DNA from: an uncultured archaeon
GTDB taxonomy: Archaea; Iainarchaeota; Iainarchaeia; Iainarchaeales; CSSED10-239
NCBI GenBank assembly: GCA_964591795.1
Contig: CAZQEL010000011.1
Span: 1-28,005, forward strand
Reading direction: 5' to 3'
DNA: 28,005 nucleotides
Under the pieces are notes generated by a model. It had not been told where the DNA came from. It searched no databases and was given only the letters and a program-made list of their open reading frames with translations. Positions 583-25,910 of this stretch are shown piece by piece. The translations under genes were made by a program, and so were the position numbers. Each line of letters starts with the position of its first letter. The stretch's first letter is position 1.

Positions 583-588
583 AAACCA

Positions 589-1737
589 ATGAGTTATATT
601 ATGGATCCAGAAAAAAATTTTGTAAATAAACTTAATGTTAAATTACAATTATTTTTGTATAGCTATGAGTATCAAATATTAATTCTTGCGAGTATTTTTT
701 CTGGTCTTTTAATTGTTTATATTGCAAATAATTATTTTATTTATACATCTTATTACTATTATTTATTAATTTTTGGAATAATTGTAAGTTGTCTTGGATT
801 TGTTTTAGAAAATATAATTAAGCATTTTAAAAAGAAAGCAATTGAAACTTCTTTTAATTATTTTTTGCAAGATTTATCTAGAGAATATAAAATAACAAAT
901 AATATATCTTTAGCTTTAATAAATATAAATAAAGCTAACGCATATGGTTCAATTGATAGTGAAATAAAAAGAATAGCAAATAGAGTCTCTTGGGGAGATG
1001 ATTTTGAAAATGCACTATTAAGTGTTAATGAAACTATTAAAAGTCCAATTATTGATCACACTTTAGTGCTATTACATACTTTTAAGGATAGCTCAATACC
1101 TCTTGATAAAGTAATTTTTAATATTTCTAAAGACTTAACTGTTTTTAAAGAAGAAACACAAAAGAAAAAATATTTTCTTAATCTTTATTATTTATCCATA
1201 GTATTGTTTTTTGTGTTTTTATTTGTAATACTTTTTGTTAATATTTTGTTAGGTACTAACTTTTTATGGTATGGAAATGAGCAACTTGTAACTAGAATTT
1301 TTTTTGATAATTTCCTATTATATATTTCAATCTTGCTTAGTATGTTTACAGCGTTTATAATGTATTCAATTAAGGAAGAAAATAATTTTAATTTCATAAA
1401 ATATGTGTTTATATTTTTCATAATAACTCTTTTACTATTTCAAGTAGTTGTGCCAAAACCAGATGCTGAAAACGTTTTAATTGATACCTTAACGTATATG
1501 AATGCTAATAATTTGAATGATATTAGTATAGATAGTATTATTGCATTAAAGTCAATTAGTTCTAAGTATATTTTAGATAAAACTTACAGTGATACTTTGT
1601 ATTTTGTGCCAATGGACGAGAAAGATTGCGGGCTTGTCTGTGCTGAATATGTTATTTTCATTCCTGATGCAGTTTTCTTAAATTTTGAAATTATGAAAAA
1701 TGAAACTAATTTTGTAATTGCATATAAATTTATATAA
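589..1737 (+). CDS. Type IV filament platform protein half (T2SS-F / TadC / FlaJ-like) with a C-terminal non-membrane extension
   Basis: ATG lies 6 nt after the previous stop. It has an N-terminal TM pair and a soluble helical segment (ETSFNYFLQDLSREYKITNNISLALININKA...IKRIANRVSWGDDFENALLSV). More TM helices follow, then a tail of about 95 aa containing CGLVC. Confidence 0.5.
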   Translation: MSYIMDPEKNFVNKLNVKLQLFLYSYEYQILILASIFSGLLIVYIANNYFIYTSYYYYLLIFGIIVSCLGFVLENIIKHFKKKAIETSFNYFLQDLSREYKITNNISLALININKANAYGSIDSEIKRIANRVSWGDDFENALLSVNETIKSPIIDHTLVLLHTFKDSSIPLDKVIFNISKDLTVFKEETQKKKYFLNLYYLSIVLFFVFLFVILFVNILLGTNFLWYGNEQLVTRIFFDNFLLYISILLSMFTAFIMYSIKEENNFNFIKYVFIFFIITLLLFQVVVPKPDAENVLIDTLTYMNANNLNDISIDSIIALKSISSKYILDKTYSDTLYFVPMDEKDCGLVCAEYVIFIPDAVFLNFEIMKNETNFVIAYKFI

Positions 1738-1746
1738 TTCAGCAAA

Positions 1747-2097
1747 TTGATTTTTATGATTAAAGTAAATAATAAAATATTAATTAAAAATACAAAAGTA
1801 TTAAGTTCTTTAAATCAAGGATTAGGGCTTATGTTTTATCCACGTAAAAAATTTAATTTTGGTTTAATTTTTGAAAGACCAACTGAGTCAATAGTCGGTT
1901 CTTCTATACATATGATATTTGTATTTTTCCCAATTAATGTACTTTTTTTAAATTCAAAAAAAGAAATTGTAGATATTAAATTAAATTTAAAACCATTTAG
2001 ATTATATGTTCCTAAGAAAAGGGCAAAATACATTATCGAATTTCCTGTAGAAACAGATTTATCTAACATTAAATTAAAAGACAATATTTCTTGGTAG
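1747..2097 (+). CDS. DUF192 (COG1430) family protein
   Basis: The track start is TTG; ATG at 1756 (MIKVNNK) is an alternative start. GLGLMF, IHMIFVFFPINVLFLNSKKEIVDI and AKYIIEFPVE resemble the conserved blocks of DUF192 as I remember the family. Size (about 115 aa) fits. Confidence 0.6.
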   Translation: MIFMIKVNNKILIKNTKVLSSLNQGLGLMFYPRKKFNFGLIFERPTESIVGSSIHMIFVFFPINVLFLNSKKEIVDIKLNLKPFRLYVPKKRAKYIIEFPVETDLSNIKLKDNISW

Positions 2098-2220
2098 TTG
2101 TTTATATGTATTTTTTTTTAAAGCTTTTAATTTATATTAAAATTTTTATTTAAACCATATGTTTAAATTAGTTTTGTTGTTATCTATATCTATTTTTATA
2201 TAATATAAAGTAAGATATAT

Positions 2221-2754
2221 ATGGTTTTAAATAAAAAAGCAATTTCAGCTATAATTTCTGTAGTTTTATTAATTCTTGTAACTTCTGTTTTAGTTGCTGG
2301 TTTTTTATCTTGGTCTAAAGCATCTACAAGAGATAAATTAGATATTTCAAAGGATCAATTACAATCTATTTCAAACAGTGAATGTATGAAATACAATCTT
2401 GTGATTGAATCTTGTAGTCTTGATTATGATACTGGAAAGGTAACTTTACTTTTAAGAAATCCAACTCCTGTTGATTTTAAGAATCTTACTTTAACCTTAA
2501 AAGGAAAATCTCAAGGAAGTAATGAAATTTTAAAAATTTTTGGAAAGTTTGATTCTAGTGTTGATGCTGGTGAAATTAAATATTTATCAACAGATAATAA
2601 TTTTACATTTACTACAAATGATGTGAATGTATCTGAATCAAAAGTAATTGATCCATTTAACCTAAAATCATTTACTTTAACAACATCAACTTGTCCTAAA
2701 AAAGTTATAGATCTTAAAAGATGTGCTGTTAATCTTCCTGATTTTGAAACTTAA
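2221..2754 (+). CDS. Archaeal type IV pilin-like protein (class III signal peptide); ends at a TAA that is in frame with the next ORF
   Basis: N-terminus MVLNKKAISAIISVVLLILVTSVLVAGFL has a short basic leader, KKA-IS, and then about 20 hydrophobic residues. This is the archaeal prepilin (class III) signature cleaved by PibD/FlaK-type peptidases. About 150 aa of beta-rich sequence follow. Confidence 0.7.
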   Translation: MVLNKKAISAIISVVLLILVTSVLVAGFLSWSKASTRDKLDISKDQLQSISNSECMKYNLVIESCSLDYDTGKVTLLLRNPTPVDFKNLTLTLKGKSQGSNEILKIFGKFDSSVDAGEIKYLSTDNNFTFTTNDVNVSESKVIDPFNLKSFTLTTSTCPKKVIDLKRCAVNLPDFET

Positions 2755-4128
2755 ATTTTATCTCCATCTAATGCAGAAAATAAGAGAGTAAATACTTCAA
2801 TTGATTTTAATTCTAGTTATGTATTTAATGATGGAACTGTTAGTTGTGAATGGTATCAAACAATAGATAGTGGTTCTCAAGTAAGAATGAATCCTTCTGA
2901 TACAGATTGTAATACTAGTTATTCTTTTACAACTGTAGGAACTTATGATGTTTTACTTGTTGCAACAGACGATTTTAATACTTCTAATGATCAAATAACT
3001 CTTGATTTATGGGATGCTTTTTCAGGTGAAATTACAGAACCTGTTGATGGTACAAAATATAATATTAATAAAACTATTATTTTAAAGTCATTATTTGATA
3101 ATAATATGTCTATTGTTTCATGTGATTGGAGTCACAAAGAATCAGGACTTTCAACATATACTTCTTTTAGTACTGATTGTAATACAACTTATTCATTTAC
3201 AGATGTTAATAGTTTTACAATTAAATTAGATTCAAATGATATAGGTGACTCTTCTTTGTTATCTGAAACAATTGATTTAAATATTTTAGATGATTTAAAT
3301 TCAACAATAACTCCTCTTTCAAGAAGTATATGGAATAATGATGAATCAATCTCTTTTACTGGTACATATGATAATAATATTTCAACTGTTACTTGTGAAT
3401 GGGTTTCAAATTTAAGTGATGTTAATACTACAAGAGGAACTGATTGTTCATCTTTAAATTATACTTTTTCATCTACTGGAGTTTATACAGTTTTTTATAA
3501 AGTAACAGATTCAGGTACTAGTGATATTGCAATTTCAAGTGTTGATTTTAATGTTTATAATCCATTGACTGGAACCACATCTTCACCAGCATCAAGTTCA
3601 ATATATAATTTAAGTGAATCTATAACTTTTACAGTTTCTCCAAATTATAATTTAGGTGTTGTAACCTATCAATGGCAATATAATAGAGATAGTTTAGGTT
3701 GGACTGATTTTGGTACAAATTCAGTATCAATAAGTATTGGTTTTGCAACTGCAGGAACTTATCAATTTAGAGTTTCTTTAACTGATGCTGATAGAGTTTC
3801 ACCAATTAACCAAGTTTATTCAAATACTATTACTGGGGTTATTATTAGTGATCCATTATCTGTTAGTATTACTGCACCTACAACAGGAACTGCATATGAT
3901 ACTGACGCTAATATAAGTTTCACATCATCCGTTAGTAATGAAGTTTCAGGAGTATTATCATATAGTTGGGAATATAGTACTGATGAAAATAATTGGGTTG
4001 TTTTTGGAACAAGTATATCTAATCCATCCACTTCTTTTGCAACTTCAGGTACAAGATATATTAGAGTAACTGTTGAGGATGGTGCTACAAGAACTGCAAC
4101 TAGTTCTTCAATTACAGTAAGTATTTTA
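2755..4128 (+). repeat. Five tandem PKD-like domain repeats (about 88-96 codons each) at protein level
   Basis: Approximate unit boundaries are 2755-3012, 3013-3288, 3289-3558, 3559-3846 and 3847-4128. Units 1-3 share the Cys pair (VSCEW / VSCDW / VTCEW ... DCNT / DCNT / DCSS). Units 4-5 replace it (VTYQW, LSYSW) but keep F-x-T-x-G-T-Y/R. Confidence 0.7.
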
Positions 4129-4671
4129 GCTCCACCTTTAATTGATATAACTAGTTTTAGTAATTTAACAGGTTGGACAGTAGTAGGTGGAGCTGTTTCA
4201 GTTACTGGTGGGTATGTTTATAAAGATCCATGGTATGATCCAAATTCATTTGTGTTTCAAGGTTCAACAACTCAAGGTAATGTAGTTATTGAAGGTATAG
4301 TAAATGATGGTGGTAGTGGTGAAGGACAACAAATGGGTTACCTTTTTAATTATGGTAGTTCTTCAGCAACATATATATGTTATATAGATAATGATTATTA
4401 TGATGATGGACTTTATTTATATTATAATACTACACAATTAGCATCAGAAGTAGTTGGTTGGGGTGGTGTTGATTCTAGTCAATATAATATTAAAATAGAA
4501 GCTTTTGGTGATTCTAAAAAATGTAAATATTGGAAAGTTGGTGATTCTGAGCCTGATACTTGGGGAATAAGTATAACTCATTCAACAAGGAATGTTGGAC
4601 AATGGGGATTTTGGATTAAGGATGATGGTGATGGTAAAGTTCATTCAATAAAAGTTACAGATTATACTTAA
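2887..4671 (+). CDS. PKD-like repeat surface adhesin with a C-terminal concanavalin-A/LamG-like lectin domain
   Basis: The annotated Met lies inside a repeat unit, and the frame is open from 2755. No signal peptide of its own is present. The repeat signature is I-x-F...C-[ED]-W...DC-N-T-x-Y-x-F...G-x-Y-x-V...V-x-D. The C-terminal ~180 aa (GWTVVGG...GQWGFWIKDDGDGKVHSIKV) look like a beta-sandwich lectin/glucanase-like fold. Confidence 0.7.
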   Translation: MNPSDTDCNTSYSFTTVGTYDVLLVATDDFNTSNDQITLDLWDAFSGEITEPVDGTKYNINKTIILKSLFDNNMSIVSCDWSHKESGLSTYTSFSTDCNTTYSFTDVNSFTIKLDSNDIGDSSLLSETIDLNILDDLNSTITPLSRSIWNNDESISFTGTYDNNISTVTCEWVSNLSDVNTTRGTDCSSLNYTFSSTGVYTVFYKVTDSGTSDIAISSVDFNVYNPLTGTTSSPASSSIYNLSESITFTVSPNYNLGVVTYQWQYNRDSLGWTDFGTNSVSISIGFATAGTYQFRVSLTDADRVSPINQVYSNTITGVIISDPLSVSITAPTTGTAYDTDANISFTSSVSNEVSGVLSYSWEYSTDENNWVVFGTSISNPSTSFATSGTRYIRVTVEDGATRTATSSSITVSILAPPLIDITSFSNLTGWTVVGGAVSVTGGYVYKDPWYDPNSFVFQGSTTQGNVVIEGIVNDGGSGEGQQMGYLFNYGSSSATYICYIDNDYYDDGLYLYYNTTQLASEVVGWGGVDSSQYNIKIEAFGDSKKCKYWKVGDSEPDTWGISITHSTRNVGQWGFWIKDDGDGKVHSIKVTDYT

Positions 4672-7596: not shown

Positions 7597-8049
7597 ATGT
7601 TTTCAAATATGTTATTTGCAGCAACAAATTTTGCAACAGATCCAGCTGCTATTGGTGGTTTAATGGGTTTAATTGCTGGAATGGTTGTAGTTGCAATAAT
7701 TGTTGGTATTGCTTTATACATATATATGGCTTTAGCGTTACAAACAATTGGAAAAAAATTAAATTATAAAAATAACTGGCTTGCATGGATACCTATTGCA
7801 AACTATGCAATGATATTAGAACTTGGTGGTTTTCATTGGGCATTAGTATTTTTGCTTTTAATACCATTTTTAGGTTGGGCAGCAGTTGCTGTGTTACAAT
7901 TCATTGCGCTTTGGAGAATTTTTGAAAAAAGAAATTATCCTGGATGGTTAATTTTAATACTTTTACTAAGTATTATTCCACTTTTAGGATTTTTAGCAAT
8001 AATTGCATACCTTATAATTTTTGGTATGGTAGCTTGGAAAGATAGATAA
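7597..8049 (+). CDS. Small polytopic membrane protein (paralogue A)
   Basis: SD aaGGGGG lies upstream. It has 4-5 TM helices. It shares TIGKK..Y..W.AWIP, IFEK.NYPG.L and IIP.L...A.IAYLII.G..A.K with 8144..8596. It resembles the DUF5684-type family from memory; this is unverified. Confidence 0.6.
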   Translation: MFSNMLFAATNFATDPAAIGGLMGLIAGMVVVAIIVGIALYIYMALALQTIGKKLNYKNNWLAWIPIANYAMILELGGFHWALVFLLLIPFLGWAAVAVLQFIALWRIFEKRNYPGWLILILLLSIIPLLGFLAIIAYLIIFGMVAWKDR

Positions 8050-8143: not shown

Positions 8144-8596
8144 ATGGTTTTTAATCTTTTTGAAAATGTTTATTTTTATTTGAGTGTTTTTTTAACATTT
8201 ATTTTAGTATATGTTTATGTTGCTTACGCTTGGCATACTATTGCAAAAAAACATAAATATCGAAAATATTGGATCGCATGGATACCTTTAGTTCAGTTTT
8301 TTTTATTACCAATCTTAGCTAAGAAAAAATGGTATTATGGTTTTGTATTTATTTTACCTTTTATTTTTTTAATTTTACCAAACTTTAAGGGATATGGTTT
8401 AATATTATTTTTACTTAGAATTGTTTGTATTTATTTTATTGTATCTTGGAGTTGGTATATTTTTGAAAAGCAAAATTATCCTGGATTTTTAAGTTTAGTT
8501 GTAATTTTATTTATTATTCCTGTTCTTAATATATTTGCATTTATTGCTTATTTAATAATATTAGGGTTTATTGCTTTTAAAACTAAAATTAAGTGA
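8144..8596 (+). CDS. Small polytopic membrane protein (paralogue B)
   Basis: SD tGGGTGa lies upstream. It is exactly the same length (150 aa) as 7597..8049 and carries the same conserved blocks. Confidence 0.6.
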   Translation: MVFNLFENVYFYLSVFLTFILVYVYVAYAWHTIAKKHKYRKYWIAWIPLVQFFLLPILAKKKWYYGFVFILPFIFLILPNFKGYGLILFLLRIVCIYFIVSWSWYIFEKQNYPGFLSLVVILFIIPVLNIFAFIAYLIILGFIAFKTKIK

Positions 8597-11642: not shown

Positions 11643-13400
11643 ATGTATCTTAAACCAAAATCAAAGATTTCAAAAGATGTTCATTTATTTCTAAATTGTC
11701 CTTACAATTTTAAATACAAAGATATTAAAGTAATATTTAACTGTGTTAATTGTAAAAATGCTCCTTGTATTTCAGCTTGTAAAAAAAATGCAATTTTTTA
11801 TATTTCAGATGGAATCGTATCTATTGATAAGAATAAATGCGATGGTTGTGGGGATTGTGTTTTAGCGTGTCCTTACAATGCTATTGTTTTAAATAAAAAA
11901 AAAGCTTATAAATGTGATTTATGTGCTTTAAGTTCTTTTTCTATGTTTTGTTATAAAAACAATAAGAATCTTTTAGAGTTAATAGATGATTATTCTCAAG
12001 ATGAAATTGATGTTATTTTAAATAGATACCTTGGTTATAAAATACTTTCATTTAAAGAAAATTTTCTAAGACAAATTTCTCTAAATATTATTGAAACAAA
12101 AGACAATATTAAAAATTATGTTGTGTATCATCCTGATTTATCACTTCAAGAAATTGAATTAATAAATTTTATTCTTGATTCATATAAGGATAAATCAGAA
12201 TTTATTGGAAAACTATCTAAAGAAAAAATTAAAGCGGATATTGAAAATGAACTTATTGATTATTGTTATATAAACAATATTGAGTTAGAAGAAGATCAAT
12301 TTAATTATATATTAGATGTTTCATTTAAAAATCTTCATGGGTATGGACCATTAAGTGATATCTTGAGTGATAATAATTTAGAAGAAATAGTGCTTCTTGG
12401 AGAAAACAAACCCTTGTTTGTTTATCATAAATATCATGGTTGGCTTGAAACTAATTTGTTATATACTTCTTTACAAATTATAAAAAATTTAATTAATAAG
12501 CTTTCCTGGCATTCTAACAAATATATAACTTTAAAAAATCCAATTTTGGATACTTATTTAAAAGATCATTCTAGATTGAATGCTTTGATTAATCCAATTA
12601 CTGAAAGTGCATCAATAACTATTAGAAAATTTTCAGAAAAGCCATTTACTATAAAGGATTTAATAAAATTTAATACTATTTCAAAAGAAGCTTTAGTTTT
12701 TTTAAGTTTATGTTTTTTAACAGATTTAAATATTATTGTTGTTGGTAATACTGGTTCTGGTAAAACAACTACATTAAACACATTACTTTCTTTTGTGCCA
12801 TTAAGTGAAAGAATTGTTGTTGTTGAAGAAGTACGGGAAATTAATATACCTCATAAACATAAAGTATTTACGTTAGTAAATCCTGAAATAGGAGTTACTT
12901 TAGAACATCTTGTTATTAATACTTTAAGAATGAGGCCTGACAGGGTTGTAATTGGAGAAATTAGAACTCGTGATGAATCAAAATATTTAATTGAATCCAT
13001 GCTTTGTGGTCAAGCAAAAGGAACATATACAACTTTTCATTCTCAAACTGCTAATGAAGCTTTACTAAGATTTAAATCATATGGTGTTTTAGAAACAGAT
13101 TTAGGGGTTGTTGATATAATTATCACACAAAGAAGATATAATAAATACACAAATAAAAAATCTATTGATTTAAGAAATATTACTGAAATTTGTGAAGTTA
13201 TTTTCGATGATTCTTCTTTAAAATTAAATAAATTGTTTGAATTTGATGTTTTTAAAAACAAATTAATTAAAAAAAATGATCCGGTTAAAGTGTTAGATAA
13301 ATTTAAAATTGCTTTCAATATAAATTCAAAAAAAGATTTAATTAATTTTTATAAAAAACAAGAAAAAGTTATTGATGGAATTTTAAATTCAATAAAATAG
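11643..13400 (+). CDS. Type II/IV secretion / archaeal type IV filament ATPase (FlaI/PilB/VirB11 superfamily) with an N-terminal DmsB/NrfC/CooF-type [4Fe-4S] ferredoxin module
   Basis: Cys motifs are CVNCKNAPCISAC, CDGCGDCVLACP and KCDLC-x8-C (nt ~11697-11951). Walker A is GNTGSGKTT (nt 12744-12770). EEVREI, RPDRVVIGEIR and the His box TFHS are also present. Confidence 0.85.
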   Translation: MYLKPKSKISKDVHLFLNCPYNFKYKDIKVIFNCVNCKNAPCISACKKNAIFYISDGIVSIDKNKCDGCGDCVLACPYNAIVLNKKKAYKCDLCALSSFSMFCYKNNKNLLELIDDYSQDEIDVILNRYLGYKILSFKENFLRQISLNIIETKDNIKNYVVYHPDLSLQEIELINFILDSYKDKSEFIGKLSKEKIKADIENELIDYCYINNIELEEDQFNYILDVSFKNLHGYGPLSDILSDNNLEEIVLLGENKPLFVYHKYHGWLETNLLYTSLQIIKNLINKLSWHSNKYITLKNPILDTYLKDHSRLNALINPITESASITIRKFSEKPFTIKDLIKFNTISKEALVFLSLCFLTDLNIIVVGNTGSGKTTTLNTLLSFVPLSERIVVVEEVREINIPHKHKVFTLVNPEIGVTLEHLVINTLRMRPDRVVIGEIRTRDESKYLIESMLCGQAKGTYTTFHSQTANEALLRFKSYGVLETDLGVVDIIITQRRYNKYTNKKSIDLRNITEICEVIFDDSSLKLNKLFEFDVFKNKLIKKNDPVKVLDKFKIAFNINSKKDLINFYKKQEKVIDGILNSIK

Positions 13401-13411
13401 ATTTGATAAAT

Positions 13412-14158
13412 ATGATTGATTTATATTTAATTAAAACCTATATATTTAATAAAAAAACCTGTACTCTTTTTTTAATAGTTTATTTTACAATAATGTTGAT
13501 TTTTTTTTTGATTGACTCTGTGATTGTGCCTTTGTCCTATGCTTATTTATTTAATATTTTTATTATGGTTTTTATAGTTTATTTTTTTGTAGTTTTTTTT
13601 CTGTATAAAATAAAAACTCAAAATTATCAACGTAAAATTAATAAAGAAATTCCTTTCTTTTTAAATAATTTGGCTAATGATATTGATAAAAATATTTCAT
13701 TGAAAATTGCTTTAGAAAATAGAATTGATGATTCATTAATTGGTTTTAAAATTAAACTAGTTATGCATAAGGTAAATACTTTAGGTTATTCACTTTCTGA
13801 ATCCTTAATTTCAGTAGGTATTGAGAATACAAATTTAAAAAGAGTATTTTATCAAATTGAAGATATTATTTCAACAGGTTCTAAAAATAAAGCTGATGCT
13901 TTAAGAACATTATCATTAAGTATAACTGAAAAACAAAATTATTTATTAAAAGATTATTCCACAAAATTAAGTTTGTTATCTTTAATATATATTGTTGTAT
14001 CTGCTATTGTGCCTGCTTTATTTTTAATGTTTCTTTTAGTTGGTAGTAATTTTCTAGAAATTTCTTTTTCACCAATAACTGTGATTTTTGTAATTGTAGT
14101 TTTATTTCCAATCATTGATATGTTTATATTTTTAGTTATGAAGGCTAATTTACCTTAA
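13412..14158 (+). CDS. Type IV filament platform protein half (T2SS-F / TadB / FlaJ-like)
   Basis: It sits directly downstream of the ATPase. The track start is TTG 13403; an ATG is at 13412. TM helices are followed by a soluble segment (KINKEIPFFLNNLANDIDKNISLKIALENR...) and then C-terminal TM helices. Confidence 0.6.
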   Translation: MIDLYLIKTYIFNKKTCTLFLIVYFTIMLIFFLIDSVIVPLSYAYLFNIFIMVFIVYFFVVFFLYKIKTQNYQRKINKEIPFFLNNLANDIDKNISLKIALENRIDDSLIGFKIKLVMHKVNTLGYSLSESLISVGIENTNLKRVFYQIEDIISTGSKNKADALRTLSLSITEKQNYLLKDYSTKLSLLSLIYIVVSAIVPALFLMFLLVGSNFLEISFSPITVIFVIVVLFPIIDMFIFLVMKANLP

Positions 14159-14178: not shown

Positions 14179-14880
14179 ATGATAAATAAAATAAAATATT
14201 TTTTATTTAAAGATTATTTGTTTTCACTTAAAATAAAAAATTTAGATAATGGTTTAGTTGATGATATTTTAAGAATTTCAAGTGTTGTTAGATCTAATGA
14301 TTTAAAAGTAATTTTAAGTAAACTTGCAGCATCAAATAATAAATTAATTTCAAGAGAGTTTACTCTAGTTTTAACTAAAATTAATAAAGGACATAATCCT
14401 AAATATATTTTTAAAAGTTTAAAAGACAAATATAATTCTGAATTATTGTCTAAATTTTTAGATCTTTTAGATTATTCAGTTTCAACTGGGACTGTAACTT
14501 CTAAAGACTATAAAAATATAGTTAATGATTTTTTGAGATCACGCGAAATTATTGATGAAAGAAATTCAATTCTTTTAATGCAAAAATATACCATTATTTT
14601 TGCAGGTGGGGTAATTGTTCCTGGTATTTTAGGGGTTGTAATTTCTTTGGTGAGAAGTTTAACTGGTATTGTTGATATATCAGTTGTTGGTTTGACTTCT
14701 AGTGCGTCTTTATTTTTAGTAAGTTATTATTGTTCCATTATATATATTATTGAATATGTTGTAATTTCAGCAGTATATTTAGCCCATTTAGATGATAATT
14801 CAAAAAAGTTTTTATTATATCTCTGTTTTTTACTTCCCACAAGTCTTTTAATCTTTTTTGTATCTATATATATAATTTGA
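14179..14880 (+). CDS. Type IV filament platform protein half (T2SS-F / TadC / FlaJ-like)
   Basis: A soluble helical N-terminal region (DDILRISSVVRSNDLKVILSKLAASNNKLISREF...) is followed by TM helices. Together with 13412..14158 it would equal one two-domain FlaJ/PilC. Confidence 0.6.
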   Translation: MINKIKYFLFKDYLFSLKIKNLDNGLVDDILRISSVVRSNDLKVILSKLAASNNKLISREFTLVLTKINKGHNPKYIFKSLKDKYNSELLSKFLDLLDYSVSTGTVTSKDYKNIVNDFLRSREIIDERNSILLMQKYTIIFAGGVIVPGILGVVISLVRSLTGIVDISVVGLTSSASLFLVSYYCSIIYIIEYVVISAVYLAHLDDNSKKFLLYLCFLLPTSLLIFFVSIYII

Positions 14881-14922: not shown

Positions 14923-15525
14923 ATGTTTGAAGAATTGATATTTAATTATGTTGCACACTTTTCAAGTAATTTTGGATATTTTGTAATTCTTATTCTAATG
15001 ATAATTGAAAGTTCATTTGTTCCATTTCCATCAGAATTTGTAATTATTCCTGCAGGTATAGCTGCATACATGGGTTCTTTAAATATTTTTTTAATTATTT
15101 TATTAGGTACTTTGGGTTCATTAATAGGTGCATCTATTAATTATTCAATTGGATATTATTTTGGACGTAAATATATTTTAAAAAATAAAAAGTTATTTTT
15201 CTTAAATATTAAACATTTAAAAAAAACAGAATATTTTTTTAAAAAGTATGGTAAACTTGCAACTTTTACTGGAAGATTGATTCCTGTTATTAAACAATAT
15301 ATTTCTTTACCAGCTGGTTTTTCTAGTATGAATTATTTTGATTTTATAGTGTATACTTTTTTAGGTTCTTTTTTATGGGTTACATTTTTAGCAATAATTG
15401 GTTATAAGTTAGGTCAAGAAATATCTAAAATAATTTTAAATTATTTTAATATTGTAGTTATAATATCTATATGTATATTTGTATTAGTTGTTGCTTTTAT
15501 TTACTTTTTAAAGAAAATTAAATAA
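14923..15525 (+). CDS. DedA / SNARE-associated family membrane protein
   Basis: ESSFVPFPSE.VIIPAG, a G-rich TM helix (LGTLGSLIGASINYSIGYYFGR), and GRLIPVIKQYISLPAGF are typical DedA blocks. Confidence 0.8.
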   Translation: MFEELIFNYVAHFSSNFGYFVILILMIIESSFVPFPSEFVIIPAGIAAYMGSLNIFLIILLGTLGSLIGASINYSIGYYFGRKYILKNKKLFFLNIKHLKKTEYFFKKYGKLATFTGRLIPVIKQYISLPAGFSSMNYFDFIVYTFLGSFLWVTFLAIIGYKLGQEISKIILNYFNIVVIISICIFVLVVAFIYFLKKIK

Positions 15526-15637: not shown

Positions 15638-15709
15638 GCCCCAGTAGTCTATCGGTTAGGATGCGACCCTGTCAAGGTTGCGGGACGGGTCCGACTCCCG
15701 TCTGGGGCG
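15638..15709 (+). tRNA. tRNA-Asp (GTC)
   Basis: Acceptor gccccag/ctggggc. Anticodon stem cgacc/ggttg with loop ctGTCaa. T arm acggg-tccgact-cccgt. Discriminator G, no encoded CCA. It is a GC island in AT-rich DNA and is followed by a T-run. Confidence 0.92.
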
Positions 15710-15895
15710 CTTTTTATTTCTTTTTTTTATTTTATTATAATAATTGATCATTTTTTGCTTATTTTTCGTATTGTTTCGCTTTGTTTCCCTGAACCTATTT
15801 AAATACAAAAATTCATAGGTTTTGTATAACTTGAGGTTTTAACCAAACTTAAGCAAGTTATTTTTTGTTTAAAAAAATTAAAAGGTGAAAATAAA

Positions 15896-17410
15896 ATGAA
15901 TGAAAAAATTGAACTTTTAGGAATTGTTCTTTTAGCCTTTACTTTTGCAATCGGTGCTTTTTACATGATGCCAAAAGTAAATGCTCAAGATGTTCTCCTA
16001 TTTGATGGAAACGGATCAAATGGTAATACTGTATCTAATGATCACCCATATGGTAATGATGATTTAATTAATTGTCCTGCTGTATGTGTTCCTATGTGGA
16101 TTATACAAGGAAATGATTGTAAATTTATAGAATGTGGTAGTGGTTGTGGTGTTAATAATAAAAATTCTTTTGAAACAGAAGAAGAGTGTATTATATACAT
16201 TAAAGAAAAACCAATTAATAATCATCCTATACTACAAAATCAAAAAATAAGATTATTAGTAAAGTTTACTCCAGTAGAAAATCAAGTTTCAGAAATGATT
16301 AAAGAATCAATGAAAGTTTCTGATGATTCAGTTGAAATTGATAATGAATTAGATGCTGTGAAATTTGAAATTCCAACTGTAACAATATATGATATTTCAA
16401 AAATACATATAAGTATTGTTTCAAATATACCTTTAAATAATGACGGTTATAATTTGTCATTAAATATGATTGAAATGCCTTTAGGTAATTCTGAAAGTGA
16501 GTTACATAATCTTTACTTAAAATTAGATAATGTTGTTGGTGTTTCAGCAGGTTATACAAATCAAGAACGTGAATCTATTCAAAATAAATCTAATAACTTT
16601 GTAAGTAATTCAGTAGATATTAGTGAAGATAATGTTGAAGTTTATACCTCTATTAACTCAAACGCAGTTAATTCTAATAAACCAACTACTGAAAATGGAG
16701 CTGTTATAAATTCAACTTCTCAAGGTTCAGTAACTGTTTCTGATGATGTTGATGCTGATGAATACAGAAGAAAATTATATAGATATAATTATACTATTTC
16801 TCTTAAAAATAATTTAAATAAAATTAAATATGTTTTTGGAAAAAATTATAATGAAAAATCATATAATTTAGAGATTAATTTAGTTAAAAATGGGTCTTCT
16901 AGAGTAATTGTTAATGATGAAACTGCACCTCTAAAACCAGATGTTTTACCTGAAGTTTTATCTTCTAGAAAATTTATTTTAAACTTTGGATCTTTAAATG
17001 AAATTCCAAATTCATTTAATGATTCAATGCAAGAAAGGGTAAGAATTTCAAATAACTCTGTTGCTGCATCAATTTCTAATGAAATTAATAATATTAGAAA
17101 GAATTCAGTAAGTGTTAAATCATTTACAGATTCTGAAATAGTTATTGATGATAGTACTGATGAAATGTATGTTGTTACTGAAAATAAAGTTAAAAAAGTA
17201 ATATCTGTTAAAGAAATTTTATCTTCTAACAATATAAATTCTGAAAGTGTAATTGGAAACGTGGATTTAGTTTCAGTTGATGATAATCCAGAATATGCTT
17301 TCAAAATTAAAGAAAGAAGAAAAATACTTTGGATTATTCCTTTTGGATATAGAGAAAAATATATTTCATTAGATGCAACTGAACAAGTTCAAATAGATAG
17401 TGAAAATTAG
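15896..17410 (+). CDS. Secreted protein: signal peptide, small six-Cys module, long Asn/Ser-rich region
   Basis: SD aaaGGTGaaa lies upstream. The Sec-type signal is LLGIVLLAFTFAIGAFYMMPKVNA-QD. Cys spacing is C-x3-C-x10-C-x4-C-x3-C-x13-C (nt 16073-16189). I recognise no family for the remainder. Confidence 0.6.
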   Translation: MNEKIELLGIVLLAFTFAIGAFYMMPKVNAQDVLLFDGNGSNGNTVSNDHPYGNDDLINCPAVCVPMWIIQGNDCKFIECGSGCGVNNKNSFETEEECIIYIKEKPINNHPILQNQKIRLLVKFTPVENQVSEMIKESMKVSDDSVEIDNELDAVKFEIPTVTIYDISKIHISIVSNIPLNNDGYNLSLNMIEMPLGNSESELHNLYLKLDNVVGVSAGYTNQERESIQNKSNNFVSNSVDISEDNVEVYTSINSNAVNSNKPTTENGAVINSTSQGSVTVSDDVDADEYRRKLYRYNYTISLKNNLNKIKYVFGKNYNEKSYNLEINLVKNGSSRVIVNDETAPLKPDVLPEVLSSRKFILNFGSLNEIPNSFNDSMQERVRISNNSVAASISNEINNIRKNSVSVKSFTDSEIVIDDSTDEMYVVTENKVKKVISVKEILSSNNINSESVIGNVDLVSVDDNPEYAFKIKERRKILWIIPFGYREKYISLDATEQVQIDSEN

Positions 17411-17481: not shown

Positions 17482-18369
17482 ATGAATTTTAATAAATTTC
17501 TAATTTTTTTTATTATTATATTTATTTCATATAATATATCTGCTTTTAATGTTGAAAATATTAATACAAAAATAATTATTAGAGAAAATGGAACTTTACA
17601 AATATCAGATACAATTTTACTTACAAATGTGGAACCTTTAGAAAAAATAACTTTACTTATGGTTTCTGTTTATGATTTAATAATAGATAGTAATTTTAAA
17701 GATTTTAATTATAGTAATTCATTTAATTCTCTTACAATTAATATACCTGACTGTTGTATTTTGGATAATTCAGTATATTTAGATGTAATTTATTTAACTG
17801 ATGTTTATTCTTTTAAAAAAGAAGCTGTTTGGAGTATATCTTATTTACCTATATTTGGAGATGTTACTAATAATTTTAATTTAGTTTTTCCAAAAAATAC
17901 AAAATTAATTGATTTATCGGTAAATTTTAAGAATGTAAGTATTATTGATAATCAATTTGTAGTATCTTTAACTGATGTATCTAACTTTGACACTAATTAT
18001 TCTATTAATTATAAACTATTAAATAATTCTAATACTAAGAAAAGTTTATTTAATTTTATTTATATATTGATAATTATTTTAATTATTAGTTTTATGGTAT
18101 GTTATTTACTTAAGAAAAATAAATCTTTTGTTGTTATTAAAAAAAATAAAAATCTTCTTTTAGGTTTAAATGAAAATGAGCAAAAGATAATTAATTTACT
18201 TCTTTCTGAAAATAGACTTTCTCAGAAAAAAATTACTTTAAAATTATTTTTACCAAAAGGAACTATTTCTAGAAATATGAAAAAATTAGAACAAAAAGGA
18301 TATATTGAAATTAAAAAATATGGTGTTACAAATAAGGTATTTTTAGGTAAAGTATTTTCTAAAAAATAA
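17482..18369 (+). CDS. Membrane-anchored winged-helix (MarR/ArsR-like) transcription regulator with an extracytoplasmic N-terminal domain
   Basis: Signal peptide is FLIFFIIIFISYNISA-FN, followed by an extracytoplasmic domain of about 165 aa. A single TM helix is LFNFIYILIIILIISFMVCYLL (aa ~188-210). The C-terminal wHTH is LNENEQKIINLLLSENRLSQKKITLKLFLPKGTISRNMKKLEQKGYIEIKKYG. Confidence 0.65.
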   Translation: MNFNKFLIFFIIIFISYNISAFNVENINTKIIIRENGTLQISDTILLTNVEPLEKITLLMVSVYDLIIDSNFKDFNYSNSFNSLTINIPDCCILDNSVYLDVIYLTDVYSFKKEAVWSISYLPIFGDVTNNFNLVFPKNTKLIDLSVNFKNVSIIDNQFVVSLTDVSNFDTNYSINYKLLNNSNTKKSLFNFIYILIIILIISFMVCYLLKKNKSFVVIKKNKNLLLGLNENEQKIINLLLSENRLSQKKITLKLFLPKGTISRNMKKLEQKGYIEIKKYGVTNKVFLGKVFSKK

Positions 18370-18433: not shown

Positions 18434-18516
18434 GCAGAGGTGGCAGAGTGGTCAAACGCGCTAGCCTGCTAAGCTAGAGTCTTACGACTACACGGGTTCG
18501 AATCCCGTTCTCTGCG
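18434..18516 (+). tRNA. tRNA-Ser (GCT)
   Basis: Acceptor gcagagg/tctctgc. Anticodon stem ctagc/gctag with loop ctGCTaa. It has a long variable arm. T arm acggg-ttcgaat-cccgt. Discriminator G, no encoded CCA. Confidence 0.92.
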
Positions 18517-18768
18517 CTTATTTTTTCTTTTTTTTAAAGTTAGTTTTAAAAAGAAATTTTTTATTTATGAAAAATATTTTAAGCAAATTAAAGCTTTTTT
18601 AAAAATTAAAAAATGCTATTTGTTTTAATTGATTTAAATAAAATTAAATAATTTTTTTAAATTGATTTTTTATTCTATTTTTAGGTTTTTACCTTATTAA
18701 AATATTCTATTTAAATATCTTTTCATATTATATATAATTAGTAAATTTATAATTTGAGGTGAAAATTA

Positions 18769-19718: not shown

Positions 19719-19800
19719 GCAGGGTTTCCCGAGTGGTCAAAGGGGATGGACTCAAAATCCATTGCTTAGTGCTTCGCAGGTTCGAATCCTGTACCCTGCA
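19719..19800 (+). tRNA. tRNA-Leu (CAA)
   Basis: Acceptor gcagggt/accctgc. Anticodon stem atgga/tccat with loop ctCAAaa. It has a long variable arm. T arm gcagg-ttcgaat-cctgt. Discriminator A, no encoded CCA. Confidence 0.92.
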
Positions 19801-25513: not shown

Positions 25514-25646
25514 TAGATACACCTCATTTATCAATAATATAAGCTTAATTTAAGCTTTTTTTTATAAAACAACCCATTAACACACTTTATATTAATATCT
25601 TGTGAAATAATACGTTATTTTTATATTATATATATTACCCAAAGTG

Positions 25647-25658: not shown

Positions 25659-25680
25659 TCGTTGCTTTTATTATTTGTAT

Positions 25681-25910
25681 AGGCTAACTGGGGGGTTTGT
25701 AGTCCTCTGTTACCGGAAATCTATATATGCCGGAGTGATTACTATTGGAAGGAAAATAAGCAAAAGAACTTTCTTTGTAAAATTGCTGATAGTTCGTCCA
25801 GTAAGAGCGAATGTCTTAGCTAACCCTGTGAGATCTGGAAGGAAGCAGCAGTATTCTAAGTGTTTGTTGCTTATTGGGGCGCGGACTTGAGATTTTATAA
25901 AGCTCTTTGT
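25681..25910 (+). ncRNA. ffs: Signal recognition particle RNA (archaeal 7S RNA); ends approximate
   Basis: The helix 8 core is gagatctGGAAggaagcagcag (25830-25851), the universally conserved GGAA tetraloop plus AGCA symmetric-loop motif. Flanking pairings are cttag (25815-19)/ctaag (25856-60) and aataagca (25756-63)/tgcttatt (25868-75). The 5' text gggggtttgtagtcctctgttaccgg is Alu-domain-like. It is a GC island and a T8 run sits at 25910-25917. Confidence 0.8.

What the first reader, a model, noticed from the sequence alone, without database searches (positions are those of the whole stretch)
11643..13400. Pilus/secretion ATPase fused to an N-terminal DmsB/NrfC/CooF-type poly-[4Fe-4S] ferredoxin module
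Seen: this is one uninterrupted 585-codon ORF.

Residues ~19-103 (nt ~11697-11951) hold 12 Cys. They are arranged CVNCKNAPCISAC (C-x2-C-x4-C-x3-C), CDGCGDCVLACP (C-x2-C-x2-C-x3-C-P) and KCDLC-x8-C. The linking text NAIFYISDGIVSIDKNKC and ACPYNAIVL is typical of the iron-sulfur subunits of the DmsB/NrfC/CooF family.

The remainder is a complete FlaI/PilB/VirB11-type ATPase. It has Walker A GNTGSGKTT (nt 12744-12770), EEVREI, RPDRVVIGEIR and the His box TFHS. Two platform genes follow immediately.

Established: these motors are controlled through variable N-terminal domains. Some bacterial members bind zinc through a tetracysteine motif in the C-terminal domain. I know of no characterised member with a multi-cluster ferredoxin module at the N-terminus.

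Inference: filament assembly or export could be gated by redox state, oxygen or iron. Alternatively, the motor could dock to an electron-transfer partner.
Basis: partly seen in the sequence, partly recalled or inferred. Interest (0 to 1): 0.78.

Follow-up and report, generated by a model that had tools for sequence, protein, structure and literature searches.

The report
Pilus motor ATPase with iron-sulfur domain
A very AT-rich DPANN-type archaeon encodes a pilus-assembly motor whose front end is a ferredoxin-like domain with binding sites for three iron-sulfur clusters; the fusion is real, conserved in well over 100 relatives and apparently undescribed, which suggests that building surface filaments in these tiny archaea depends on the cell's redox, oxygen or iron state.

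Summary
ORF 11643-13400 (585 aa) joins a CooF/HycB/DmsB-type poly-[4Fe-4S] module (residues 1-107, 12 Cys, Fer4_11 above Pfam's cut-off) to a complete FlaI/GspE-type secretion ATPase with all catalytic motifs. Two platform (T2SSF) genes follow directly. It is not a chimera: more than 120 homologues from independent assemblies share the architecture, down to 35% identity. All named sources are DPANN archaea (Iainarchaeota/Diapherotrites, Micrarchaeota). The fused proteins form one clade (NJ bootstrap 100/100).

Most members carry 16 Cys, enough for four clusters. The window's sub-clade has lost one complete four-Cys ligand set, leaving three clusters. A second lineage has lost another complete set, leaving two. 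This all-or-none loss by ligand set is strong indirect evidence that the clusters are real. AlphaFold models are confident (pLDDT about 92). The module matches four-cluster electron-transfer subunits and the body matches afGspE/FlaI. No solved structure or paper I could search describes the fusion.

The function is inferred. Most likely the motor's activity or assembly depends on intact Fe-S clusters (about 0.45). A constitutive docking domain (0.25) and an electron relay (0.15) are the main rivals. I rate it a new variant of a known kind, interest about 0.6.

The parts
11643..13400 (+). Whole gene: ferredoxin-fused FlaI/GspE-type secretion/pilus ATPase, 585 aa
   Evidence: ORF. Pfam T2SSE plus Fer4_11. 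AF2 model at pLDDT 91.6, pTM 0.74.
11643..11963 (+). N-terminal poly-[4Fe-4S] ferredoxin module (residues 1-107), with 12 Cys predicted to bind three clusters
   Evidence: Fer4_11 at 36.9-41.2 bits against a cut-off of 26.2. AF2 model of residues 1-135 at pLDDT 91.7. Foldseek matches to four-cluster subunits 9mqx_E/G, 6x1o_B, 2vpw_B, 7qv7_A/B and 1kqf_B. The Cys are 96-100% conserved.
11694..11711 (+). Remnant of Cys motif I (NCPYNF). Only the fourth Cys (C19, followed by Pro) survives. It is the predicted fourth ligand of the cluster held by C91, C94 and C103.
   Evidence: In 16-Cys homologues this position is the last Cys of CxxCxxCxxxCP. C19 is conserved in 109/111.
11742..11780 (+). Cys motif II, CVNCKNAPCISAC (C34, C37, C42, C46)
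   Evidence: Conservation is 107-111 of 111.
11838..11873 (+). Cys motif III, CDGCGDCVLACP (C66, C69, C72, C76)
   Evidence: C66, C69 and C72 are invariant; C76 is 109/111.
11913..11951 (+). Cys motif IV without its last Cys, CDLCALSSFSMFC (C91, C94, C103). The position of the fourth Cys is Asn107 here.
   Evidence: C91, C94 and C103 are invariant. Position 107 is Cys in 65 and Asn in 44 of 111.
11964..12332 (+). Junction and N-terminal extension of the ATPase (residues 108-230): short beta-strands, the conserved LG[YW] motif (G131 invariant) and a helical bundle
   Evidence: Secondary structure and pLDDT of 75-94. Invariant G131 and E170. Sequence alignment to afGspE and FlaI starts at about residue 145-148. 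This is the least conserved region.
12333..12662 (+). ATPase N-terminal domain (residues 231-340)
   Evidence: Foldseek superposition on 2oap and 4ii7. Mean identity to the query is 0.52.
12663..13397 (+). ATPase catalytic C-terminal domain (residues 341-585), with Walker A 12744-12770, Asp box 12807-12842, Walker B 12933-12965 and His box 13032-13043
   Evidence: Motif coordinates. K374, T375, E395, E399, R431, D433, E439, R441 and H466 are invariant in 111 sequences. T2SSE E=3.6e-34.
13403..14158 (+). Platform protein, first half (single T2SSF-like domain, 251 aa). It starts 2 nt after the ATPase stop codon.
   Evidence: No Pfam hit itself, but 29% identical (E=3e-28) to L082 gene 11802-12602, which carries a T2SSF hit, and 75% identical to the L081 orthologue.
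14179..14880 (+). Platform protein, second half (T2SSF, 233 aa)
   Evidence: Pfam T2SSF at 27.2 bits against a cut-off of 25.2. Orthologues sit in the same position in L081, L082, L085 and L086.
14923..15525 (+). VTT/DedA-family membrane protein, the last gene of the same-strand string. It is conserved after the platform pair only in the closer relatives.
   Evidence: Pfam VTT_dom E=4.3e-22. Same position in L081 and L086, absent in L082 and L085. tRNA-Asp at 15638-15710 follows.

Best explanation
What it is: the gene encodes a catalytically competent, hexamer-type FlaI/GspE-family motor ATPase. It drives a split (two-gene) platform protein of a type IV pilus-like or secretion machine. It belongs to a single-origin subfamily, so far seen only in DPANN archaea, in which a CooF/HycB-like poly-[4Fe-4S] domain sits in front of an otherwise complete ATPase.

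Predicted clusters: in this protein the domain should hold three [4Fe-4S] clusters.
- C91, C94, C103 plus C19
- C34, C37, C42 plus C76
- C66, C69, C72 plus C46

Proposed mechanism: the N-terminal domain is a cofactor-dependent structural and regulatory module. Its fold depends on intact clusters. Through it, the motor's ability to assemble, dock or hydrolyse ATP productively depends on those clusters. Filament assembly would then be permitted when the cell is anoxic, iron-replete and reduced, and shut down when clusters are oxidised or lost.

Shown: the architecture, its conservation, the single origin, the fold, the operon and intact catalytic motifs.
Inferred: that clusters are actually bound, the ligand assignment, and the whole regulatory mechanism.
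For: Architecture and reality:
- Fer4_11 and T2SSE both score above their cut-offs.
- More than 100 homologues at 35-79% identity from NCBI, JGI, ENA and Logan assemblies share the architecture.
- At least 12 further 50%-identity clusters are also fused.
- Collinear independent loci exist.

Single origin: 122 fused sequences are monophyletic on the ATPase core alone, with NJ bootstrap 100/100 against 25 non-fused relatives.

Real cofactor sites:
- The 12 Cys are 96-100% conserved.
- The module is as conserved as the ATPase N-terminal domain (0.49 vs 0.52 identity) and more so than the linker or tail (0.32-0.33).
- All 38 of 38 N-terminal modules sampled across the family hit Fer4 models.
- Confident ferredoxin-like models match solved four-cluster subunits.
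- Cys are lost only as complete ligand sets. 59 sequences have all 16 Cys. 44 have lost exactly I-1,2,3 plus IV-4. 2 clusters (one with 12 independently assembled members) have additionally lost exactly II-1,2,3 plus III-4.

Competent motor: Walker A, Asp box, Walker B and His box residues are invariant. The body superposes on afGspE and FlaI (TM 0.64/0.74). Platform genes are tightly linked.

Regulatory or structural role favoured over a wire:
- The two clusters kept in every variant are one per ferredoxin half-domain. The dispensable ones are the other member of each pair.
- In the two-cluster lineage the survivors are not neighbours in the canonical chain. This rests on established knowledge of FdnH and NarH, not on a test here.
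- No redox enzyme or membrane electron carrier is a conserved neighbour in five loci.
- Non-fused paralogues exist in the same phyla, so the fusion marks a specialised motor.

Context: the window carries other Fe-S and iron or oxidative-stress-related genes (Dph2-type diphthamide synthase, EncFtn/rubrerythrin-like).
Against: - No experiment shows cluster binding, redox sensitivity or any effect on ATPase activity.
- Known Fe-S sensors such as FNR, NreB and SoxR use one cluster. Chains of 3-4 clusters are otherwise a hallmark of electron transfer.
- Most family members (59 of 111) keep the full four-cluster chain under strong constraint, which a simple sensor would not need.
- The loss pattern rests on only two independent evolutionary events.
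- The locus has no pilin of its own, so the filament or substrate is unknown.
Confidence: 0.45

Rival explanations
1. Constitutive structural or docking domain. The Fe-S clusters only stabilise a compact N-terminal domain, as in ABCE1/Rli1. That domain positions the motor on its platform proteins or on another partner, with no physiological sensing of redox, oxygen or iron.
For: - One cluster per ferredoxin half-domain is retained in every variant, as expected if clusters mainly hold the fold.
- pLDDT is high through the junction, and an invariant G131 in a conserved LG[YW] motif suggests a fixed arrangement against the ATPase.
- In related genomes the neighbouring pilin and peptidase locus has only a Walker-A-less ATPase homologue, which could be a docking partner.
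- The ABCE1 precedent is my own knowledge.
Against: - A 100-aa domain needing 12-16 Fe is a costly scaffold for organisms with minimal genomes.
- Any [4Fe-4S] domain of this type is intrinsically oxygen-labile, so conditionality is hard to avoid.
- No partner has been identified.
Confidence: 0.25
2. Electron relay. The 3-4 cluster chain passes electrons between the ferredoxin pool or a redox partner and something at the membrane or platform. Six modules on the hexamer might form a ring or wire of 18-24 clusters, linking electron flow to filament function.
For: - The closest sequence and structure relatives are all electron-transfer subunits: PsrB, FdnH, HycB, HDCR HycB3/B4 and tungsten AOR Fe-S subunits.
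- From my own knowledge, HycB3/B4 and AorA polymerise into Fe-S nanowires.
- Most family members retain a full four-cluster chain.
Against: - No conserved redox-enzyme or cytochrome neighbour appears in five loci.
- The window's clade dropped a terminal cluster, and another lineage dropped an internal one, leaving two non-adjacent clusters.
- The DPANN genomes analysed in PMC8561730, which include Micrarchaeota and Diapherotrites lineages, are described as lacking electron-transport chains.
- No electron acceptor is evident.
Confidence: 0.15
3. Relic or different metal. The Cys-rich module no longer binds Fe-S, either because it is a degenerating ferredoxin or because it has become a Zn-binding domain, and it is functionally neutral or merely a spacer.
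For: - The window's clade has already lost 4 of 16 Cys, and another lineage has lost 8.
- Bacterial GspE and PilB bind Zn through a tetracysteine motif (PMC5061722).
Against: - The remaining Cys are invariant, with canonical CxxCxxCxxxCP spacing and a confident ferredoxin fold.
- Losses occur only as whole ligand sets, never piecemeal.
- The module is as conserved as the ATPase N-terminal domain.
Confidence: 0.05
4. Artefact. The join between the ferredoxin and ATPase parts is an assembly chimera or a gene-calling error.
For: None was found.
Against: - The same fusion with the same start appears in more than 120 clusters from independent assemblies, on contigs up to 840 kb.
- An independent assembly is collinear with the window.
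- There is no in-frame start upstream, and the N-terminus is conserved.
Confidence: 0.01

Closest known systems
Archaeal secretion-superfamily ATPases afGspE (Archaeoglobus fulgidus, PDB 2OAP) and FlaI/ArlI (Sulfolobus acidocaldarius, PDB 4II7/4IHQ)
   Same: - The N-terminal-domain plus catalytic-domain body is the same. The sequence match to 2oap is E=1.3e-50 over query residues 148-554.
- Foldseek gives TM 0.64/0.74 over about 480 columns.
- All four nucleotide-binding motifs are present.
- It is adjacent to FlaJ/TadC-type platform genes.
   Different: - It carries an extra 107-residue poly-[4Fe-4S] module at the N-terminus, which no solved member has.
- It scores only 170 bits against NCBIfam's FlaI model (cut-off 550).
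- No archaellum genes (archaellins, FlaF/G/H) lie in the window.
- The platform is split into two genes.
Four-[4Fe-4S] electron-transfer subunits of the CooF/HycB/DmsB/NrfC/PsrB family (Pfam Fer4_11; e.g. PsrB 2VPW_B, FdnH 1KQF_B, HDCR HycB3/B4 7QV7, tungsten AOR Fe-S subunits 9MQX_E/G, 6X1O_B, 8C0Z_C)
   Same: - Motif order, spacing and linking sequence are the same.
- Fer4_11 scores above its cut-off.
- They are the best structural matches.
- Distant family members carry the full 16-Cys complement.
   Different: - Here the module is fused to a motor ATPase instead of being a stand-alone subunit of an oxidoreductase.
- No catalytic or membrane-anchor partner is encoded nearby.
- The window protein keeps only 12 Cys (three sites).
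- All equivalog models (DsrO, TtrB, DmsB, NrfC, FdhB) score far below their cut-offs.
ABCE1/Rli1 (ribosome-recycling ABC ATPase with an N-terminal two-[4Fe-4S] ferredoxin-like domain); own knowledge
   Same: The design principle is the same: a bacterial-ferredoxin-type Fe-S domain at the N-terminus of a mechanochemical ATPase. There the clusters are structural and mechanical, not electron carriers, and they make the enzyme oxygen- and iron-sensitive.
   Different: - The ATPase fold is unrelated (ABC versus PilT/VirB11-class).
- ABCE1 has two clusters rather than three or four.
- The cellular process differs.
- This is an analogy only. No homology beyond the ferredoxin fold was tested.
Bacterial GspE/PilB/MshE motors with metal-binding or regulatory add-ons (tetracysteine Zn site in the C-terminal domain, PMC5061722; N-terminal c-di-GMP-binding and other cofactor domains, PMC11656802)
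   Same: It is the same superfamily, and the same theme applies: the motor is controlled through accessory N-terminal domains or bound metals.
   Different: The metal site here is a multi-cluster Fe-S domain at the N-terminus, not a single Zn site inside the catalytic domain. No nucleotide-second-messenger domain is present.

Membership tests
Secretion-superfamily (T2SSE / PilB / FlaI / VirB11) ATPases | Pfam T2SSE domain above the gathering score | tested here: met
   118.4 bits against a cut-off of 24.9, E=3.6e-34
Secretion-superfamily (T2SSE / PilB / FlaI / VirB11) ATPases | Walker A, Asp box, Walker B and His box with their catalytic residues | tested here: met
   GNTGSGKTT, ERIVVVEEVREI, RPDRVVIGEIR and TFHS are present. 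K374, T375, E395, E399, D433, E439 and H466 are invariant in 111 homologues.
Secretion-superfamily (T2SSE / PilB / FlaI / VirB11) ATPases | Two-domain fold (N-terminal domain plus RecA-like C-terminal domain) as in solved members | tested here: met
   AF2 pLDDT 91.6. Foldseek 2oap E=3e-36, TM 0.64/0.74; 4ii7 E=3e-32.
Secretion-superfamily (T2SSE / PilB / FlaI / VirB11) ATPases | Hexameric assembly and ATP hydrolysis | not testable with these tools
   Needs biochemistry or a multimer prediction.
Secretion-superfamily (T2SSE / PilB / FlaI / VirB11) ATPases | Genomic linkage to a polytopic platform protein (T2SSF / FlaJ / TadBC) | tested here: met
   Two T2SSF-type genes follow directly. The same holds in L081, L082, L085 and L086, but not in L084.
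Archaellum motor FlaI/ArlI (NCBIfam NF058587 equivalog) | Score at or above the equivalog cut-off | tested here: not met
   170.1 bits against a cut-off of 550
Archaellum motor FlaI/ArlI (NCBIfam NF058587 equivalog) | Archaellum operon context (archaellins, FlaF/G, FlaH) | tested here: not met
   None of these appears among the Pfam-scanned genes of the 28-kb window.
Four-cluster ferredoxin-type subunits (Pfam Fer4_11; CooF/HycB/DmsB/NrfC/PsrB) | Fer4_11 hit above the gathering score | tested here: met
   36.9 bits in the full protein and 41.2 bits on residues 1-135, against a cut-off of 26.2
Four-cluster ferredoxin-type subunits (Pfam Fer4_11; CooF/HycB/DmsB/NrfC/PsrB) | Four Cys groups (16 Cys) ligating four clusters | tested here: not met
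   The window protein has 12 Cys. Motif I keeps only its fourth Cys, and motif IV lacks its fourth Cys. 59 of 111 family members do have all 16.
Four-cluster ferredoxin-type subunits (Pfam Fer4_11; CooF/HycB/DmsB/NrfC/PsrB) | Double-ferredoxin fold | tested here: met
   AF2 pLDDT 91.7. Foldseek probability 1.0 to 9mqx_E/G, 6x1o_B, 2vpw_B, 7qv7_A/B and 1kqf_B, with TMq about 0.5.
Four-cluster ferredoxin-type subunits (Pfam Fer4_11; CooF/HycB/DmsB/NrfC/PsrB) | Actual binding of [4Fe-4S] clusters | not testable with these tools
   Only indirect support: invariant ligands and all-or-none loss by ligand set.
Four-cluster ferredoxin-type subunits (Pfam Fer4_11; CooF/HycB/DmsB/NrfC/PsrB) | Partnership with a catalytic (molybdopterin, Ni-Fe, W) subunit and/or membrane anchor encoded nearby | tested here: not met
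   No such gene lies in the window or in five related loci. The DsrO, TtrB, DmsB, NrfC and FdhB models all score far below their cut-offs.
ABCE1/Rli1-type Fe-S ATPases | Twin ABC-type nucleotide-binding domains behind the Fe-S domain | tested here: not met
   The ATPase part is T2SSE-class. ABC_tran gets only a 17-bit sub-threshold P-loop match. This is an analogy only.

The most novel reading that the evidence does not exclude
The hexameric motor carries a crown of 18-24 [4Fe-4S] clusters that is redox-active in vivo. In this reading electron input from the ferredoxin pool, or from a partner, directly sets what the motor does. For example, it could switch a single archaeal ATPase between filament extension and retraction, since archaea lack PilT and how retraction is controlled is open (PMC11178785). 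Or it could pass electrons on towards the platform or filament that contacts a host cell. That would be a pilus machine coupled to electron flow, not merely gated by cofactor integrity.
Probability: 0.12. Interest if true: 0.9.

Novelty: new variant of a known kind. Interest (0 to 1): 0.6.

Why it matters
Type IV pilus-like machines are the main surface organelles of DPANN archaea, organisms with minimal genomes that appear to depend on contact with other cells. How these archaea control their pili is unknown.

A monophyletic, strongly conserved motor subfamily with an oxygen-labile, iron-demanding, redox-active domain gives a concrete and testable link between cell physiology (anoxia, iron, ferredoxin redox state) and filament assembly. 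As far as I could find, it would also be the first Fe-S domain on any PilB/GspE/FlaI-class ATPase. That would add to the few cases, such as ABCE1, where ferredoxin modules have been recruited by mechanochemical ATPases.

The natural series of four-, three- and two-cluster variants is a ready-made mutational map for biochemistry.

Tried and rejected
- **Genome scan.** It returned only generic CpaF/TadA/FlaI relatives at 37% identity or less, none covering the ferredoxin part. Its archaeal loci were reused as non-fused comparators.
- **Cys geometry.** Model coordinates are not exposed, so I could not measure Cys-Cys geometry, cluster spacing or the domain interface.
- **Dead paralogue placement.** The first NJ tree placed the Walker-A-less paralogues as sister to the fused clade. 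BLAST shows their best hits are long non-fused PilB3_C-type ATPases. I treat the sister placement as long-branch attraction and leave their origin unresolved. A first bootstrap script timed out, and a faster version was used.
- **Split-gene forms.** The 132-aa and 464-aa members of one cluster are fragments on separate short contigs. The 132-aa piece is annotated 'partial' by its source.
- **Literature.** Eleven queries and paper look-ups found nothing on this architecture. A search for a citable description of the Cys-group ligand pairing also failed, so that rule is marked as my own knowledge. Subscription journals are largely outside the library.
- **Pilin in the operon.** Only one class-III-signal-peptide candidate exists in the window (2221-2754), and it belongs to the other locus.
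- **Pfam scan of the full 111-sequence alignment.** The 38-sequence N-terminal alignment was used instead.
Full report
**1. The observation.**
The window is very AT-rich (GC about 0.22). It is archaeal, with an archaeal SRP RNA at 25676-25948. It is a whole 28,005-bp public contig.

ORF 11643-13400 (+) is uninterrupted and encodes 585 aa. ATG 11643 is the first possible start after the upstream stop.

Against a background of 0.78% Cys in the other 27 proteins of the window, this gives P about 4e-12. The remaining 482 residues contain four Cys.

Pfam finds Fer4_11 above its gathering score (36.9 vs 26.2 bits, residues 33-95), along with other Fer4 families. It finds T2SSE at 118 bits. Walker A lies exactly at nt 12744-12770, and the Asp box, Walker B and His box are present.

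Two platform genes follow. The second hits T2SSF directly. The first is orthologous (E=3e-28) to T2SSF-annotated genes in related loci.

**2. It is neither an artefact nor a one-off.**
A search of 5.8 billion protein clusters returned the window protein itself plus more than 100 clusters at 35-79% identity. These have the same length (about 540-625 aa) and carry T2SSE plus Fer4 domains. They come from NCBI, JGI, ENA and Logan assemblies.

A filter-free search of 1.84 billion 50%-identity representatives with residues 1-250 added at least 12 more fused clusters. The remaining hits were ordinary stand-alone Fe-S subunits of 110-300 aa.

Where a source gives a name, it is Candidatus Iainarchaeum/Diapherotrites, Micrarchaeota/Micrarchaeia or 'archaeon'. 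JGI's pipeline labels some 'Flp pilus assembly CpaF family ATPase/ferredoxin'.

An independent NCBI assembly (L081, 74% identity) is collinear with the window over about 20 kb. Distant relatives at 35-56% identity also have the fused ATPase followed directly by two T2SSF genes (L082/L083, L085, L086). One Micrarchaeota locus (L084) lacks the platform pair.

The only short 'split' forms are fragments on short contigs.

On the ATPase core alone (267 columns, ferredoxin part excluded), all 122 fused sequences form one clade. NJ bootstrap is 100/100 against 25 non-fused archaeal and bacterial relatives. This indicates a single fusion event followed by diversification.

Conventional non-fused ATPases of about 500 aa, with no N-terminal Cys, also occur in Iainarchaeum, Micrarchaeota, Woese-, Aenigmat- and Parvarchaeota genomes. 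The fused form is therefore a specialised paralogue.

**3. Anatomy of the ferredoxin module.**
In the alignment of 111 homologues the 12 Cys are conserved in 107-111 sequences. C46, C66, C69, C72, C91, C94 and C103 are invariant.

The more distant members have four complete motifs:
- I: CxxCxxCxxxCP
- II: CxxCx4-6CxxxC
- III: CxxCxxCxxxCP
- IV: CxxCx5-8CxxxCP

That makes 16 Cys, the signature of four-cluster subunits such as CooF, HycB, DmsB, NrfC and PsrB.

In those proteins each cluster is held by the first three Cys of one motif plus the fourth Cys of its partner motif, pairing I with IV and II with III. This is established from the FdnH and NarH structures and is my own knowledge, not tested here. 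I label the four ligand sets as follows:
- Set A: I-1,2,3 + IV-4
- Set B: IV-1,2,3 + I-4
- Set C: II-1,2,3 + III-4
- Set D: III-1,2,3 + II-4

The distribution across the 111 sequences is all-or-none by set:

| State | Sequences |
|---|---|
| All four sets present | 59 |
| Lost all four Cys of set A only | 44 |
| Lost set A and set C | 2 |
| N-terminally truncated gene calls or single substitutions | 6 |

The 44 form the window's monophyletic sub-clade together with the two double-loss clusters (46 sequences in all, at least 53% identity to the query). One of the two clusters that also lost set C (P0016) has 12 members from independent assemblies.

These are only two evolutionary events. Each, however, removed four Cys that are far apart in sequence and meet at one predicted site, while every other Cys stayed invariant. 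I regard this as the strongest available evidence that the sites bind clusters.

The window protein is thus predicted to bind three [4Fe-4S] clusters:
- C91, C94, C103 + C19
- C34, C37, C42 + C76
- C66, C69, C72 + C46

The module is as conserved as the ATPase N-terminal domain (mean identity to the query 0.49 vs 0.52). It is more conserved than the linker or C-tail (0.32-0.33). All 38 of 38 sampled modules hit Fer4 models.

**4. Structure.**
AlphaFold2 with the 111-sequence alignment gives mean pLDDT 91.6 and pTM 0.74, with no disordered segment. The ferredoxin part scores 87-95. The N-terminal 135 residues modelled alone give pLDDT 91.7.

Foldseek places the body on afGspE (2OAP, E=3e-36, TM 0.64/0.74) and FlaI (4II7/4IHQ) over about 480 columns. 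Sequence alignment to both starts at about query residue 145-148. The ferredoxin module is therefore an add-on in front of a complete enzyme, not a replacement of its N-terminal domain.

The module alone matches only four-cluster electron-transfer subunits (sequence-level agreement):
- tungsten aldehyde oxidoreductase Fe-S subunits (9MQX_E/G, 6X1O_B, 8C0Z_C)
- PsrB (2VPW_B)
- HDCR HycB3/B4 (7QV7)
- FdnH (1KQF_B)
- HycB (7Z0S_B)

No PDB chain covers both parts.

**5. Genomic setting.**
The same-strand string runs as follows. The ATPase is followed after 2 nt by platform half 1, then after 20 nt by platform half 2, then after 42 nt by a VTT/DedA membrane protein. A tRNA-Asp at 15638-15710 closes the string.

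No pilin gene is in this string. The only class-III-signal-peptide candidate in the window is 2221-2754 (MVLNKKAISAIISVVLLILV...). It belongs to a second T4P-like locus at the left edge, which holds two T2SSF genes, DUF192, the pilin-like gene and a PKD-repeat protein.

In collinear loci on 0.66-0.69 Mb contigs, that second locus is preceded by a prepilin peptidase. It is also preceded by a 923-1116-aa homologue of the secretion ATPase with no Walker A and no acidic Asp-box or Walker B residues (GNTGSGKTT aligns with GDNDS--FM), that is, a pseudo-ATPase.

The fused enzyme 10 kb downstream may therefore be the active motor for that pilin locus, but this is conjecture.

No redox enzyme, cytochrome or membrane electron carrier is a conserved neighbour in any of the five loci examined.

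**6. How it most likely works.**
Shown:
- a competent-looking motor, with all catalytic residues invariant
- tight linkage to its platform
- a conserved N-terminal domain with three intact Fe-S ligand sets

Inferred: the role of that domain. I favour a cofactor-dependent structural and regulatory module at about 0.45. In this model the N-terminal domain folds only around intact clusters. The motor's ability to assemble, dock or turn over would then depend on anoxia, iron supply and a reduced state.

Arguments for this model:
- The clusters retained in every lineage (B and D) are one per ferredoxin half-domain.
- The dispensable ones (A and C) are the other member of each pair.
- In the canonical chain A-B-C-D (my own knowledge of FdnH and NarH), the two-cluster lineage keeps non-neighbouring clusters, which breaks any intramolecular wire.
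- No electron partner is conserved nearby.
- ABCE1 offers a precedent for a ferredoxin domain serving a mechanochemical ATPase without electron transfer (my own knowledge).

Arguments against it:
- Known Fe-S sensors use single clusters.
- Most family members preserve a full four-cluster chain.
- All the nearest relatives of the module are electron carriers. From my own knowledge, some of them polymerise into Fe-S nanowires.

The rivals are a constitutive docking scaffold (0.25), an electron relay or ring (0.15), a relic or Zn site (0.05) and an artefact (0.01 or less).

**7. Comparison with what is known, and novelty.**
The protein is a member of the secretion-superfamily ATPases (domain, motifs, fold and platform linkage all met). 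It is not an archaellum FlaI equivalog: it scores 170 against a 550-bit cut-off and has no archaellum genes nearby.

Its N-terminal part belongs to the Fer4_11 fold family. It fails two defining features of the four-cluster oxidoreductase subunits: it has 12 Cys rather than 16, and it has no catalytic or anchor partner.

The 2016 census of archaeal type IV pili does not mention ferredoxin or Fe-S. No paper in the searchable library combines these domains. Recent reviews of PilB regulation and of Zn in GspE describe other add-ons (PMC11656802, PMC5061722).

The architecture is visible in public databases through automatic labels. As far as I can tell, nobody has described or studied it. I classify it as a new variant of a known kind.

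**8. Verdict.**
The added value here is:
- the family-level picture (a single origin, seen only in DPANN archaea among named sources)
- the four-, three- and two-cluster series
- the operon and paralogue context

The mechanism remains inferred. Interest 0.6.

Noticed in passing
window 13-4671 (+): A second type IV pilus-like locus sits at the left edge. It holds two T2SSF platform genes (13-582, cut by the contig end, and 589-1737), DUF192 (1747-2097), the only pilin-like gene of the window (2221-2754, N-terminus MVLNKKAISAIISVVLLILV) and a 594-aa PKD-repeat surface protein (2887-4671). Its ATPase, if any, lies off the contig.
   Followed up: partly
L087:5784-9134 and L088:6302-9073 (collinear relatives of the window's left edge): The gene in the ATPase position of that second locus, next to a prepilin peptidase, encodes a 923-1116-aa distant homologue of the secretion ATPase. 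It has no Walker A (GDNDS--FM in place of GNTGSGKTT) and no acidic Asp-box or Walker B residues, and it carries a long Lys/Ser/Asp-rich N-terminal region. It looks like a catalytically dead pseudo-ATPase. Its origin is unresolved: an NJ tree puts it as sister to the fused clade, but BLAST favours PilB3_C-type long ATPases.
   Followed up: partly
L082:2842-3195, L084:7595-7921, L085:6838-7143, L087:11159-11500, window 1747-2097: A small DUF192 (COG1430) gene recurs next to or within a few kb upstream of the ferredoxin-fused ATPase, or next to the neighbouring platform pair, in all lineages examined. It may be an unrecognised component of these pilus systems.
   Followed up: partly
L082:8037-9800: In a distant relative (38% identity), a KaiC-like ATPase (PF06745, the family that includes archaellum FlaH) and a DUF4013 membrane protein lie directly upstream of the fused ATPase. 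They are not present in the window.
   Followed up: no
window 17482-18369 (+): A 295-aa protein has an N-terminal signal or transmembrane segment, an extracytoplasmic region of about 190 aa, a second transmembrane helix and a C-terminal winged-helix (HTH_24/TrmB/MarR) domain. This is a membrane-anchored one-component regulator. It is conserved in the same position downstream of the pilus operon in L081.
   Followed up: no
window 15896-17410 (+): A 504-aa protein with an N-terminal hydrophobic segment, a Cys-rich stretch (CPAVCVPMW...CKFIECGSGCG) and no Pfam hit. A 515-aa gene occupies the same position in L081, also with no Pfam hit; I did not compare the two sequences. It may be a secreted or surface protein.
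   Followed up: no
window 7597-8049 and 8144-8596 (+): Two tandem genes encode 150-aa polytopic membrane proteins. The first has a sub-threshold DUF5684 hit and the second has no Pfam hit. They look like a local duplication. L081 and L087 each show one gene of about 150 aa (149-153 aa) in this interval.
   Followed up: no
window 25676-25948 (+); 15638-15710, 18434-18517, 19719-19800 (+): An archaeal SRP RNA (110 bits, above the gathering score) lies in the AT-rich gap after ftsZ. There are three tRNA genes (Asp-GTC, Ser-GCT, Leu-CAA). The tRNA-Asp marks the end of the pilus gene string.
   Followed up: yes
window 27636-27917 (-) and 26576-27580 (+): An EncFtn-like/rubrerythrin-type ferritin (E=1.7e-38) and a Dph2-type diphthamide synthase lie here. 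From my own knowledge, Dph2 is itself a [4Fe-4S] enzyme. The organism therefore handles iron and oxidative stress and makes Fe-S proteins, which is relevant background for an Fe-S-dependent motor.
   Followed up: no
P0087, P0090, P0101, P0118, P0119 (Micrarchaeota-type family members): These members have a shortened motif III (CxxCxxCxC instead of CxxCxxCxxxCP), and the precomputed Pfam annotation shows no Fer4 hit for them, although all Cys are present. The ligand geometry of two clusters may differ in this lineage.
   Followed up: no
window 24404-25534 (-): The ftsZ gene stands out in base composition, with GC up to 0.35 against about 0.22 for the rest of the window. This is probably due to strong amino-acid constraint rather than foreign origin.
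   Followed up: no
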